This document shows, piece after piece, positions 36,401-39,400 of a stretch of DNA of 42,332 nt. Below the pieces are notes generated by a model. It worked only from the letters and a program-made list of their open reading frames with translations, was not told the DNA's origin and ran no database searches. The DNA comes from Euglena gracilis. Taxonomy: Eukaryota. Made by a program: the position numbers and the translations under genes. Every line of letters begins with the position of its first letter. Positions within the stretch are counted from its first letter, which is position 1. Where the stretch lies: positions 7,575,425-7,617,756 of the forward strand of contig CP154954.1 of the NCBI GenBank assembly GCA_039621445.1, in the 5' to 3' direction.

Positions 36401-39400
36401 GAATTTTTCTTTGTGGAATGACATGGTAATGGGGGGGGGTCGACCGCCACCTACTATTTACCCGTACAGCCCTGGGGAGGCCAGGAGCGGCCGCGGGAAG
36501 GTGTGTGATCTTTCTAAATATGCGTGCGGTGTCCTACCTGAACCCCCTGGGGTGGTTGCACGTTGGCTCGGTTCTGAATCGTTCCCAAACCGCCCTTTGC
36601 CATATTAAAAAAAAAGCAAAAACCAAAAAATATGGTTTGTCAGTGTTGACACTGCCAAACTTATTTATAAATATTTTTTGGCCCACCAGAAGAGGCACTT
36701 CAATTTGTCTCCATTCAAGAGTATCTCCATTCCCGGACACGGAGCGCCTTTGTGCCCGTTGCATTTGCGGCCGTGTGCAAGCACATGCCCTAGATGGGCG
36801 AATGCCCGTGACATCGATGGGTCATCCACAAGGAGAAGGTGCGGAAAGAGGGCGCTTCCCTCGAACAGTTCCTGGCTCAGCCGCCCCTGGCCCCTCCAAC
36901 TGGGGGGAGGGGACTCTGTCGCCCCTCCGAAAATCAAAATTAATGGATTCTAAGCAGTTCTTCAAAAGAGAACTTTCGGTGGAAAAAACAAATTGGCGGA
37001 CCCCCCCACCTTGCAGGTGGGGGTCGAACCCCACCCACCAGGCCTTCCCATGCAGCTTCCTCCGTGCACACACACACTCACCCGCACACACACACACACA
37101 CACACACACACACACGCATAACACACACACACACACTCACTCACACTCACACTCACACTCACCCACACACACACACACCCGCACACACATAACACACACA
37201 CACACATACACACACGCACACTCACCCGCACACACACTCACCCGCACACACATAACACACATGCACACACACACACACACACACACACACTCACCCACAC
37301 ACACACACACACACCCGCACACACATAATACACACACACATACACACTCACTCACTCACTCACTCACCCACACACACTCACCCGCACACATAACACACAC
37401 ATACACACACACTCACCCACACACACATAACACACACACTCACTCACACTCTCACACACATAACACACACACACACACACACCGCGGGGGTCCACTCGAT
37501 GATGTCGCCCATGCCCCGGGCGGCTGCCTCCCGGGCGTCGTGGTTCACCGCCTGGTTCGCCCCGGCGAAGGTCTTGAGGTAGCGCCAGGGCCGGGCGGCA
37601 GCGACTCCCACCCCCCCCCCTGCCATGGTTTTCGCAAATCCAGCTGGACCTCTCTGAGAGGGGTGCTGGCTGAAAGATGGGGCTGGCTGGAAACCCTGGG
37701 GGGGGGGGGGGGGCTCTGCCCGGCTGATGCCTGAAAAGAGGCCAAGATGGGTGATCCCACCCACCACCCACGGGGTTTATGGGGTGCCCGCGCAGCCCTG
37801 GGGAGTACGGCAGCACCGGGTCCAGCGCCTTGGGCTTCGAGAACGCGGCAATCTTGTTGTTGCCTGCGCCGCAGCGGTGAACGGAGCGTTGGCAAGTGAG
37901 GGCGTGAAAGCAGAACATGTTTGACGAAACAATTTGGGAGCTCGTCGTTTGGGATAACACGTTAGGCGGGTGAACGAGACCCATCCACAGCGGCATGAGG
38001 GGCAGCTGGCGTTGACCAAGCTAATACAGAGGACGATGGGACGTTCACCCTGTTGCCAGACGGGGGGGGGGGGCTTTCACCGAAACGATGTTAGGTTTCC
38101 CTAGAAACAGAAATATACGTTCAACATATATTTCTGGTGTGCTGCTTGCTGATGAGACTTCTTTTCTAGACCCCTGGGGGAGCTCAGAAGATGCTGCGGC
38201 AAACCATGCCCACACACACACACACATATACACACACGCACGCACGCACGCACGCACGCACGCACGCACGCACGCACGCACGCACGCACGCACGCACGCA
38301 CGCACGCACGCACGCACGCACGCACGCACGCACGCACGCACGCACGCACGCACGCACGCACGCACGCACGCACGCACGCACGCACGAACGCACGCACGCA
38401 CGCACACACGCACGCACGCACACACGCACACAGGCATGCATACGCTCAAGCGCGCGCGCGCGCACACACACACCACCGAGGCCGGTAACGGCGACGCCGA
38501 GGGAGGAGTGTACAACGGCCATCAGCTGCAGCTGTTGTTCCACGTCCAAAGCAGGCTTCTTTTTAAGACCCCTGGGGGGGGGGTCCCCCCCACCCACCCA
38601 GGGTGGCGCCGGACCCCCCCGGGGGGGGGGGGGGACCCCCCCAAAATCGGGCCTATTAAAGGCAATTTTCAAAAATTTTCGGCGCTTCGCGCCGAAAAGG
38701 TATACCCAGCGCCTCCGGCGCGGGACCCCCCCCCGGGGGGGGGGCTGGCCCGGACCCACCCACCCACCCCCCTCCCCCCGGGGGGGGGGGGGGGGGGGGG
38801 CGGGTGACTTAAAAAGAAGCCTGGTCCAAAGAGGCAGTGATGGCCTGCATGGCGCTGACCGCCTCCTGCTGCACCAGCTCCTGTGATGGACGTCACAGGT
38901 GGGCCGCCTGCCAGATTCTTACCACAACCCGACCATCACGCCACAAGCCGCACCATGCATGCCACCCAAGACAAGCCACACCGCACCACACCACACCACA
39001 CCGCACTGCACCACACCGCACCGCACCGCACCGCACCGCACCGCACCGCACCGCACCGCACCGCACCGCACCGCACCGCACCGCACCGCACCGCACCGCA
39101 CCGCACCGCACCGCACCGCACCACACCACATCACATCACACCACGCCACGCCAGCCACACCACACCACACCACACCACACCACACCACACCACACCACAC
39201 CACACCACACCACACCACACCACACCACACCACACCACACCACACCACACCACACCACACCACACCACACCACACCACACCACACCACACCACACCACAC
39301 CACACCACACCACACCACACCACACCACACCACACCACACCACACCACACCACACCACACCACGCCACACCACACCACGCCACGCCACACCACGCCACGC

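What the first reader, a model, noticed from the sequence alone, without database searches (positions are those of the whole stretch)
38544..38831. A nonconventional intron that is an intact hAT-type MITE: 16-bp TIRs, perfect 8-bp TSD, scar-free removal
Seen: GCN1 coding sequence is interrupted by GTCCAAAG-[CAGGCTTCTTTTTAAG...CTTAAAAAGAAGCCTG]-GTCCAAAG. There is no GT-AG, and deleting the element plus one repeat restores ...AITASL-DVEQQ.... Established: hAT transposons make 8-bp TSDs and typically start with CAG/TAG, and euglenid nonconventional introns pair CAG at +4..+6 with CTG at -8..-6. Inference: that asymmetric consensus leaves 3 nt outside the stem at the 5' end and 5 nt at the 3' end, and 3+5=8, exactly one TSD. 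The splicing machinery would then read the transposon TIR stem and erase an exonic hAT insertion at RNA level, making this an intron-generating (introner) system. A MITE-like origin for these introns has been suggested before as far as I recall; the explicit match between TSD length and splice geometry is what stands out here.
Basis: partly seen in the sequence, partly recalled or inferred. Interest (0 to 1): 0.95.

Follow-up and report, generated by a model that had tools for sequence, protein, structure and literature searches.

The report
Transposon removed as a nonconventional intron
A 272-base miniature transposon from a very abundant repeat family sits inside a coding exon and is cut out of the messenger RNA exactly, together with one copy of its 8-base insertion scar, which is concrete evidence for the long-suspected transposon origin of the odd "nonconventional" introns of euglenid-type genomes.

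Summary
At 38544-38831 a 272-bp element with perfect 16-bp terminal inverted repeats (TIRs) lies between two perfect copies of GTCCAAAG. Such a TIR+8-bp-repeat pair arose in 1 of 200 window shuffles.

It interrupts a minus-strand exon. RNA lacks exactly 280 nt, with 8 letters ambiguous at the joint: 8 raw reads from 8 start sites, plus one 2647-nt spliced contig.

The left two-thirds is massively multi-copy (23,149 and 1,420 contigs in two DNA-like runs). Copies diverge into unlike flanks exactly at the CAG terminus.

On the sense strand it reads CTTTG|GAC-CAG…CTG-CTTTG|GAC. That meets every element of the experimentally defined Euglena nonconventional-intron code (PMC12501133).

A second intact element (TSD GTCCCAAG) and three decayed relatives lie in the same window.

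Not shown:
- hAT membership: 8-bp TSD and nTnnnnAn fit, YARNG fits 4 of 5, no transposase seen; Merlin is a rival.
- The GCN1 label.
- Absence of an empty allele.
- A genome-wide excess of 8-nt repeats.

The MITE origin, and an 8-nt repeat at a newly gained intron, are already in print. I found no named family or 3+5=8 argument.

The parts
38552..38823 (.). 272-bp non-coding TIR element (MITE). It has G-run/C-run hairpin modules and a central hairpin, TTTTCGGCGC-TTCG-GCGCCGAAAA.
   Evidence: One search shows the left part, 38549-38728, is multi-copy: 23,149 contigs in X1, 1,420 in X9 and 188 in X15.
38552..38567 (+). Left terminal inverted repeat, CAGGCTTCTTTTTAAG.
   Evidence: One search lists no variant at 10% share or more within 38552-38572, and loose ends pile up 'before 38552' (108 contigs in X1, 59 in X9, 9 in X15, 4 reads in X21).
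38808..38823 (-). Right terminal inverted repeat, a perfect complement of the left one.
   Evidence: This end was not covered by reads, because 38729-38812 was skipped as repeat.
38544..38551 (.). Target-site duplication copy GTCCAAAG (sense-strand CTTTGGAC). In the transcript this is the 3' copy.
   Evidence: It fits nTnnnnAn.
38824..38831 (.). Target-site duplication copy GTCCAAAG. In the transcript this is the 5' copy.
38547..38826 (-). The 280-nt nonconventional intron, drawn by the published 3-nt/5-nt rule: GAC-CAG...CTG-CTTTG. Any of 9 registers gives the same mRNA.
   Evidence: One search reports the joint 38543->38824, 'skips 280, both = 8', in 8 X21 reads (8 start sites) and 1 X15 contig of depth 156. 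The code comes from PMC12501133.
38481..38546 (-). Downstream part of the interrupted coding exon.
   Evidence: X15 contig piece 38481-38543, 0 other letters; depth table. (reading frame).
38827..38882 (-). Upstream part of the interrupted coding exon.
   Evidence: In one search the loose end 'behind 38882' (8 X21 reads, 1 X15 contig, agreement 1) continues into the exon that ends at 39564.
27821..28271 (.). Second intact relative, 451 bp. Its TIR is CATACATCTCT(T/C)TAAGG and its perfect 8-bp TSD is GTCCCAAG (27813-27820 and 28272-28279). It shares the ...TTTAAG-ACCCC-G-run architecture and the central hairpin. It does not lie in coding sequence.

Best explanation
A non-autonomous cut-and-paste DNA transposon (a MITE) of a very abundant family inserted into a coding exon and duplicated the 8-bp target GTCCAAAG. 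In the pre-mRNA (minus strand) its two 16-nt terminal inverted repeats pair. The stem closes with CAG:CTG. The two TSD copies then supply the 3 nt (GAC) upstream of CAG and the 5 nt (CTTTG) downstream of CTG that the euglenid nonconventional-intron machinery measures, with a purine (G) as the first base of the next exon. Cutting at those two points removes the element plus exactly one TSD copy (3+5=8), so the mRNA is restored without a scar and the frameshifting insertion is harmless. Shown here: the anatomy, precise loss of 280 nt from RNA, family abundance with unlike flanks starting at CAG, and a fit to every element of the published code. Inferred: that loss is by RNA splicing of this allele rather than by expression of an empty allele; that the 8-bp repeat is a transposition TSD; that the cuts lie at the 3/5 positions; and that the mobilising enzyme is hAT-like (about even odds).
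For: (1) Anatomy. For chance, 1 of 200 shuffles gave any TIR+8-bp-TSD element, against 2 observed. (2) RNA: the joint skipping 280 nt with 8 ambiguous letters is seen in 8 raw RNA reads from 8 start sites (X21) and in one 2647-nt contig of depth 156 (X15). That contig also splices to the next exon (loose end at 38882 equals the exon at 39564). (3) Family: 23,149 (X1), 1,420 (X9) and 188 (X15) contigs lie on 38549-38728. Loose ends sit 'before 38552' in 108, 59 and 9 contigs and 4 reads, with flank agreement of only 0.34-0.43. No variant of 10% or more occurs within the TIR. Our copy carries the minority base at 5 of about 177 covered positions (38573, 38610, 38635, 38654, 38655). (4) Code: N3-CDG/CH'G-N5-6|R was defined by knock-ins, and fully synthetic 50-bp introns with these features plus 12 bp of pairing are spliced in E. 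gracilis (PMC12501133, sections read). This copy has GAC-CAG, CTG-CTTTG, exon-start G and 13 further paired bases. (5) Fold: the TIR stem forms in the MFE and centroid structures, z = -7.0, 0 of 100 shuffles as stable. (6) Relatives in the window: a second intact element with TSD GTCCCAAG, and three decayed CAG-terminal elements. CA is invariant in 10 of 10 ends, consensus CAGnCTTnTTTTTAAG. (7) A newly gained nonconventional intron in E. agilis gapC carries eight-nucleotide direct repeats (PMC4770533, passage).
Against: The two DNA-like runs had zero depth on the unique flanks. Neither the insertion allele nor an empty allele was therefore seen in DNA reads, and no unspliced RNA read of this locus could be identified. 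Only the left two-thirds of the element was covered, and the right boundary of the family was not observed. This copy has a purine (G) at the last position of the upstream exon and of the intron, where 49 of 55 published introns have a pyrimidine. That paper also reports intron positions +2/+3 as not conserved although exon +2 is A in 43 of 55, so junctions are not simple mirror images (PMC4770533). The 3' spacer tolerates 6 nt, so the machinery does not itself enforce 8. The in-window test of 8-nt flank identity is weak: for CDG-starting stems of 7 nt or more, 19 of 291 reach 5/8 or better at the true offset, against 4-11 at eight control shifts, and stems starting with any sequence show little difference.
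Confidence: 0.8

Rival explanations
1. Empty-allele (or paralogue) expression. The genome carries both an insertion allele and an uninterrupted allele, and the '280-nt skip' in RNA simply comes from the uninterrupted copy. The MITE allele would then be a null or NMD-degraded allele rather than an intron.
For: In one search the DNA-like runs X1 and X9 gave zero depth on 38477-38530 and 38837-38890, so an empty site cannot be excluded. A joint with 8 ambiguous letters is exactly what an empty site would give. No read joining the exon to the element at this locus was listed.
Against: The copy satisfies every element of a code shown by knock-in to be sufficient for splicing (PMC12501133). The spliced contig has 0 other letters over the listed exon piece 38481-38543 (63 nt). 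The copy differs from the family majority at 5 positions, so it is not brand new. Nonconventional introns are 71.8% of introns in E. agilis.
Confidence: 0.08
2. The transposon is right but the superfamily is wrong. The element is mobilised by a non-hAT transposase that also makes 8-bp TSDs: Merlin, which is documented in E. gracilis, or P-like or another family.
For: Two Merlin families with 8-bp TSDs and an intact DDE motif are reported in E. gracilis (PMC8101967, passages). I found no report of hAT transposases in euglenids. The hAT terminal motif YARNG is met at only 4 of 5 positions (CAGGC), and the sister element starts with CATAC (motif from PMC3014272).
Against: Merlin TIRs carry a conserved terminal 5'-GG, whereas all 10 aligned ends here start with CA. 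Both intact TSDs (GTCCAAAG, GTCCCAAG) and both loose-end flank consensuses (GTCCGGAC, GTCCGAAC) fit the hAT/Hermes target pattern nTnnnnAn.
Confidence: 0.25
3. It is not a DNA transposon at all. The repeat family spreads as an intron, by reverse splicing or retro-insertion of the excised circular RNA. Alternatively, the 8-nt repeat is a double-strand-break repair footprint, as proposed for the E. agilis gapC intron.
For: Excised nonconventional introns are circular (Guminska 2021, seen only as cited in PMC11282704 and PMC12621601). DSB repair was the authors' reading of the 8-nt repeat (PMC4770533).
Against: Copies become unlike exactly at the CAG terminus (most loose ends at 38552), not 3 nt upstream as an RNA-borne unit would. 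Flanks differ between copies (agreement 0.34-0.43). A non-exonic sister element also has a perfect 8-bp repeat of different sequence. Perfect TIRs plus a fixed-length, target-biased duplication are the signature of transposase integration.
Confidence: 0.05

Closest known systems
Euglenid nonconventional introns with the N3-CDG/CH'G-N5-6|R splicing code (Nomura et al. 2025, PMC12501133; Milanowski et al. 2014 and 2016, PMC3935182 and PMC4770533)
   Same: No GT-AG ends. CAG at +4..+6 pairs with CTG at -8..-6. [quoted passage not shown]
   Different: Here the intron is an intact member of a hugely repeated TIR family with a perfect 8-bp TSD. Published introns are described individually, with 'TSD-like' repeats and an origin called unclear. 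This copy has G rather than a pyrimidine at the -1 positions.
E. agilis ACOI 323 gapC intron 4, a strain-specific newly gained nonconventional intron (PMC4770533)
   Same: It is a recently gained nonconventional intron flanked by eight-nucleotide direct repeats.
   Different: The authors attributed the repeat to double-strand-break repair and reported no repeat family or TIR element. I could not see its sequence (Table S3 is a supplement).
Introner elements / MITE-derived spliceosomal introns (Micromonas, Aureococcus, dinoflagellates; as reviewed in PMC11282704)
   Same: A non-autonomous TIR transposon inserts into exons and is removed with one TSD copy, so insertion is scar-free at the RNA level. 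TSD length and splice geometry are matched.
   Different: Those are removed by the spliceosome, using one splice site carried by the element and one co-opted from a 3-5-bp TSD. Here there are no GT/AG signals and removal follows the non-spliceosomal-looking stem-measured code with an 8-bp TSD. Spread into many genes was not tested here.
hAT superfamily non-autonomous elements (8-bp TSD, YARNG termini, nTnnnnAn target; PMC3014272, PMC10368747). One example is maize Ds acting as a de novo intron (Giroux 1994, seen only in the reference list of PMC3935182).
   Same: 8-bp TSD, short TIR starting with CAG, and both intact TSDs fit nTnnnnAn.
   Different: YARNG is met at 4 of 5 positions and no transposase or subterminal motifs were identified. 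Ds is removed imprecisely through cryptic spliceosomal sites (recalled), not through its own TIR stem.
Merlin transposons of Euglena gracilis (PMC8101967)
   Same: They are DNA transposons with 8-bp TSDs and near-perfect TIRs, documented in a euglenid.
   Different: Merlin TIRs end in 5'-GG, while these elements end in 5'-CA (10 of 10 ends).

Membership tests
MITE (miniature inverted-repeat transposable element) | Short, non-coding, with terminal inverted repeats | tested here: met
   The element is 272 bp with a perfect 16-nt TIR. The interior is G/C runs and hairpins with no protein-like ORF.
MITE (miniature inverted-repeat transposable element) | Flanking target-site duplication of fixed length | tested here: met
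   A perfect 8-bp repeat flanks this copy, and a different perfect 8-bp repeat flanks the sister element. No element was found with an exact 9-11-bp repeat.
MITE (miniature inverted-repeat transposable element) | High copy number with unrelated flanks | tested here: met
   In one search, 23,149 (X1), (X9) and (X15) contigs were laid. Loose ends at 38552 have flank agreement of 0.34-0.43. Only the left two-thirds was covered.
Euglenid nonconventional intron | No GT/GC-AG borders in any equivalent register | tested here: met
   The 9 registers on the sense strand start CT, TT, TT, TG, GG, GA, AC, CC, CA and end TG, GC, CT, TT, TT, TG, GG, GA, AC (read).
Euglenid nonconventional intron | 5'-N3-CDG ... 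CH'G-N5-6 | R(exon) with pairing beyond the trinucleotides (PMC12501133) | tested here: met
   The sequence reads GAC-CAG ... CTG-CTTTG | G, with 13 more paired bases.
Euglenid nonconventional intron | Precise removal from mature mRNA | tested here: met
   The 280-nt skip is seen in 8 reads from 8 start sites (X21) and 1 contig of depth 156 (X15). An empty allele is not excluded.
Euglenid nonconventional intron | Released as a full-length circular RNA | not testable with these tools
   The single read-laying run listed no back-joint for this locus. A dedicated circRNA assay is needed.
Euglenid nonconventional intron | The host is a euglenid | not testable with these tools
   No genome is held, run organisms are coded, and there are no Rfam hits in the window.
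hAT superfamily | 8-bp TSD | tested here: met
hAT superfamily | Terminal motif YARNG (PMC3014272) | tested here: not met
   CAGGC matches 4 of 5 positions (position 5 is C, not G). The sister element starts with CATAC.
hAT superfamily | Target preference nTnnnnAn (Hermes, PMC10368747) | tested here: met
   GTCCAAAG and GTCCCAAG fit (2 of 2 intact TSDs). The flank consensuses GTCCGGAC and GTCCGAAC also fit, but with low agreement.
hAT superfamily | Autonomous partner encoding a BED/DDE/hAT-dimerisation transposase with the same ends | not testable with these tools
   No genome is held. I saw no transposase-like ORF by eye among window ORFs of 110 aa or more; these were not scanned against Pfam.
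Merlin superfamily | TIR with conserved terminal 5'-GG (PMC8101967) | tested here: not met
   All 10 aligned ends start with CA.
Introner (intron-generating transposon family) | Many sequence-similar copies serving as introns in different genes | not tested
   Only this exonic copy was examined. Four X21 RNA reads come from another copy with flank ...TCCAAAG (loose end at 38545); this is a hint only.

The most novel reading that the evidence does not exclude
The euglenid nonconventional splicing code would be the footprint of one transposon group. The conserved CAG/CTG is the transposon terminus, and the 3-nt and 5-nt spacers are the two parts of its 8-bp TSD. The published 'same base at both junctions' rules (Y|R at both, exon start R-A-C) would then be the residue of a target preference near the palindrome TCCGGA. 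Because the target is near-palindromic, the two TSD copies pair in the RNA and extend the TIR helix through both splice sites. Cuts 3 and 5 nt outside the TIR would then be a 2-nt-staggered, RNase III-like double-strand cleavage followed by ligation. That would explain the circular introns. On this reading, the majority class of Euglena introns are descendants of such insertions, and the machinery is in effect an RNA-level transposon-excision system.
Probability: 0.3. Interest if true: 0.9.

Novelty: new variant of a known kind. Interest (0 to 1): 0.72.

Why it matters
[quoted passage not shown] These introns are 71.8% of all introns in E. agilis.

This locus supplies what the hypothesis lacked:
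- a named, intact, highly repeated TIR family;
- a perfect TSD;
- RNA evidence of scar-free removal;
- an arithmetic reason (3+5=8) why insertion is harmless in either orientation.

That turns the question into countable genome-wide tests: TSD logo against junction logo, the distribution of sliding distance, exonic copy counts, and a search for the autonomous partner. It also allows a direct knock-in test in an existing assay. In addition, it extends the introner principle, in which TSD length is matched to splice geometry, to a splicing system that does not use GT-AG.

Tried and rejected
- Whole-genome search for copies: no genome is held.
- Earlier notes of this scan: nothing by sequence, place or words.
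- Metagenome scan with the TIR (21 nt, 2 degenerate positions): 0 hits.
- Metagenome scan with the 22-nt central hairpin: 5 loci (L001-L005). They share only the generic hairpin stem (23-31 nt) and are not relatives.
- Host-gene identity was not confirmed:
  - 5 single-exon searches of solved structures gave nothing significant; the best was Importin-4 HEAT repeats, E = 0.095;
  - Pfam on 10 minus-strand ORFs gave 0 families at curated cut-offs;
  - 3 homologue searches returned only an 82-aa ORF of the same organism;
  - the representative search gave one hit, to the microsatellite-encoded tail.
- Rfam: no family at gathering score in the element or anywhere in the window.
- Sequencing-run search: no RNA holder was listed among indexed runs. 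RNA evidence came from laying one raw-read run and one small-share contig run.
- Joined form in the DNA runs: 0 contigs, but there was also 0 depth on the flanks, so this is uninformative.
- Modelling the downstream intron (after 38481) by rule: no register fits either GT-AG or the nonconventional code, so it is left open.
- In-window statistics on 8-nt flank identity: only a weak excess.
- The transposable-element content of the E. gracilis GEVE paper held nothing relevant.
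Full report
**Observation**

- GTCCAAAG lies at 38544-38551 and again at 38824-38831.
- Between the two copies is a 272-bp element (38552-38823) whose ends are a perfect 16-nt inverted repeat, CAGGCTTCTTTTTAAG / CTTAAAAAGAAGCCTG. 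The repeat is 21 nt long at 90%.
- The interior is non-coding: alternating G-runs and C-runs around an A/T-flanked central hairpin, CGGCGC-TTCG-GCGCCG.

I scanned the window for an exact flanking repeat directly abutting a TIR of at least 11 of 12. It found two elements with 8-bp repeats, one G-run artefact with 7 bp, and none with 9-11 bp. The two 6-bp hits are the same two elements shifted by one base. The same scan on 200 dinucleotide-preserving shuffles found an element in 1 of 200, mean 0.005. The structure is therefore not chance.

**Coding context**

The interrupted gene is on the minus strand. Removing 280 nt (272+8, not a multiple of three) opens the frame ...AITASLDVEQQ....

On the sense strand the site reads ...GCC TCT TTG | GAC-CAG GCU...AGC CUG-CUUUG | GAC GTG... 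. In none of the nine equivalent registers does the removed piece begin with GT/GC and end with AG.

**RNA**

No whole genome is held. I therefore used the one run search and the one read-laying run on 38441-38975, the stretch between two microsatellites.
- A raw-read RNA-seq run (X21, about 5% of the run read) gives a joint 38543->38824, 'skips 280', with 8 letters fitting either side. It is seen in 8 reads (3+5 by mate orientation) that start at 8 different places.
- A small-share run (X15, guessed RNA) holds the same joint in one 2647-nt contig of depth 156.
- That contig, and 8 X21 reads, continue beyond 38882 into sequence that matches the exon ending at 39564. They are therefore spliced transcripts.
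- The intervening intron (38883-39563 as aligned) can be drawn as GT...AG after a 2-nt slide, so it is conventional.

**Limits of the RNA evidence**

The two DNA-like runs (X1, X9) show no such joint. They also have zero depth on the unique flanks, so they say nothing about whether an uninterrupted allele exists. No read joining exon to element at this locus was listed either.

**Family**

The same call shows that the element is not single-copy.
- On 38549-38728, 23,149 contigs of X1, 1,420 of X9 (labelled as a different organism code) and 188 of X15 were laid at 85% likeness or better.
- The commonest loose end is 'before 38552', the C of CAG: 108 contigs in X1, 59 in X9, 9 in X15, and 4 reads in X21. 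The flank consensus agreement is only 0.34-0.43, so the flanks are unlike one another. Smaller piles at 38550 and 38551 (43 and 41 in X1) are what chance extension would give.
- No variant reaching 10% is listed within 38552-38572, so the TIR is the family consensus.
- Our copy carries the minority base at 38573, 38610, 38635, 38654 and 38655, about 5 of 177 covered positions. It is a slightly diverged member, not a brand-new one.
- The right third (38729-38812) was skipped as repeat, so the right boundary of the family was not seen.
- The weak flank consensuses end in GTCCGGAC (X1) and GTCCGAAC (X9).
- Some contigs read GTCCCAAG at the TSD (38548 A>C).
- Four RNA reads from another locus match from 38545 (…TCCAAAG-CAG…).

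**Relatives in the window**

A second intact element lies at 27821-28271 (451 bp).
- Its TIR is CATACATCTCT(T/C)TAAGG and its perfect 8-bp TSD is GTCCCAAG.
- It has the same ...TTTAAG-ACCCC-G-run architecture and the same central hairpin (33 nt at 97%).
- It does not lie in coding sequence.

Three decayed CAG-terminal elements follow the same plan:
- 20072-21287: TIR 15/16, flanks 6/8 identical;
- 12120-12328: TIR 12/16;
- 5293-6641: TIR 14/16, flanks 5/8.

Aligning all ten ends gives CA invariant and the consensus CAGnCTTnTTTTTAAG.

A broader in-window test looked at stems of 7 nt or more that start with CAG, CGG or CTG, and asked for 8-nt flank identity of at least 5/8. It gives 19 of 291 at the true offset, against 4-11 at eight control shifts. 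Stems of any starting sequence show little excess. That is suggestive only.

**Fit to the known splicing code**

Nomura et al. 2025 (PMC12501133; abstract, passages and sections 5, 8, 10 and 11 read; supplements not seen) defined the code by knock-in into an E. gracilis exon. The code is 5'-N3-CDG/CH'G-N5-6|R, and pairing beyond the trinucleotides is also needed. Their key results:
- The 5' spacer must be exactly 3 nt.
- The 3' spacer is best at 5 nt, tolerated at 6, and poor at 4 or 7.
- Fully synthetic 50-bp introns with these features are spliced.

This copy has GAC-CAG, CTG-CTTTG, exon-start G and 13 more paired bases.

The RNA fold forms the TIR stem in both MFE and centroid structures, and part of the two TSD copies pair outside it. 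The z-score is -7.0, and 0 of 100 shuffles are as stable.

Because the TIR begins with CAG, an 8-bp TSD supplies exactly 3+5 nt. Cutting by the code therefore removes the element plus one TSD, in either orientation, provided TSD position 6 is a purine. By that rule the intron is 38547-38826 on the minus strand.

**Superfamily**

hAT features taken from print are an 8-bp TSD with YARNG termini (PMC3014272, passage) and the Hermes target nTnnnnAn (PMC10368747, passage).
- The TSD length is met.
- nTnnnnAn is met by 2 of 2 intact TSDs and by both flank consensuses.
- YARNG is met at 4 of 5 positions (CAGGC), and is not met by the sister element (CATAC).
- No transposase could be sought, because no genome is held. 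I saw no transposase-like ORF by eye among window ORFs of 110 aa or more; these were not scanned against Pfam.

Merlin elements with 8-bp TSDs exist in E. gracilis but end in 5'-GG (PMC8101967, passages). All 10 ends here start with CA.

I therefore call it an 8-bp-TSD, hAT-like MITE and do not file it as hAT.

**What is already in print**
- Milanowski 2014 (PMC3935182, passages) proposed the MITE-like origin.
- The 2024 review (PMC11282704, passages) describes TIRs with CAG/CTG and 'TSD-like' repeats.
- Nomura 2025 repeats the idea and calls the origin unclear.
- Milanowski 2016 (PMC4770533, passages; Table S3 not seen) reports eight-nucleotide direct repeats at a strain-specific new intron, and reads them as double-strand-break repair. 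It also gives paired junction rules. A pyrimidine occupies the last position of the upstream exon in 49 of 55 introns and the last position of the intron in 49 of 55. [quoted passage not shown] Downstream exon position +2 is A in 43 of 55, and +3 is C in 30 of 55.
- RNase III plus ligase has been proposed as a mechanism (PMC12621601, passage).

In seven of the eight full-text searches I ran I found none of the following:
- a paper that names a repeat family as a nonconventional intron;
- a paper that shows an intact TSD-flanked copy being spliced;
- a paper that states the 3+5=8 argument.

This holds only for the held library, and supplements were closed.

**Points against, or left open**
- This copy has G, not a pyrimidine, at both -1 positions.
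- Published intron positions +2/+3 are not conserved, so junctions are not simple mirrors.
- The machinery tolerates a 6-nt spacer.
- The GCN1 label is unconfirmed. Five structure-sequence searches, a Pfam scan of 10 ORFs, three homologue searches and one representative search gave at best a non-significant HEAT-repeat hit. The exons are too short.
- The empty-allele rival stands at about 0.08.

**Verdict**

The locus is a real, RNA-validated case of a multi-copy TIR transposon acting as a nonconventional intron, with the TSD supplying the spacers the code requires. It is a new variant of known kinds (nonconventional introns; introner-type transposons). It is a direct handle on an open question, but it is not the discovery of the idea itself.

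Noticed in passing
window 27813-28279: A second intact MITE, 451 bp, with TIR CATACATCTCT(T/C)TAAGG. Its perfect 8-bp TSD, GTCCCAAG, differs from the first element's TSD at one position. It shares the central hairpin and the G/C-run modules. Its termini are CAT/ATG rather than CAG/CTG, and it is not in coding sequence.
   Followed up: partly
window 20072-21287; 12120-12328; 5293-6641: Three older CAG-terminal TIR elements (TIR 15/16, 12/16 and 14/16), with 8-nt flanks 6/8, 3/8 and 5/8 identical. They share the end consensus CAGnCTTnTTTTTAAG.
   Followed up: partly
window 38544-38551 (read flanks): Flank consensuses of other family copies end in GTCCGGAC or GTCCGAAC, and four RNA reads from another locus carry ...TCCAAAG before the CAG. 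This suggests a near-palindromic target preference (nTCCGGAn). With such a target, the two TSD copies would pair in RNA. Agreement is low (0.34-0.76).
   Followed up: no
window 38883-39563 (minus strand): The intron upstream of the MITE-bearing exon becomes GT...AG after a 2-nt slide, so it is conventional. It consists largely of a (CCACA)n array of about 89 copies. The downstream intron (below 38481) holds a (CACG)n array of about 52 copies and fits neither GT-AG nor the nonconventional code in any register I tried.
   Followed up: partly
window 18213-19141; 37067-37482; 1029-2203: There are very long simple repeats: (ATAC) about 233 copies, (CA) about 211 copies, and a 20/50-nt minisatellite of 1.17 kb.
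   Followed up: no
window 38657-38700 and 28079-28111; loci L001-L005: The central hairpin TTTTCGGCGC-TTCG-GCGCCGAAAA (a UUCG-type tetraloop stem) is shared by both intact elements. It recurs as a generic hairpin in 5 unrelated metagenome contigs, one of them with 5 tandem copies (L003).
   Followed up: partly
window 34732-35099 (minus strand) vs P0002: An 82-aa ORF predicted on a public 1313-nt contig is 100% identical to the exon at 34785-34922. Upstream of that it continues in a different frame of the window, which implies an indel difference between the two sequences in the adjacent non-coding stretch.
   Followed up: no
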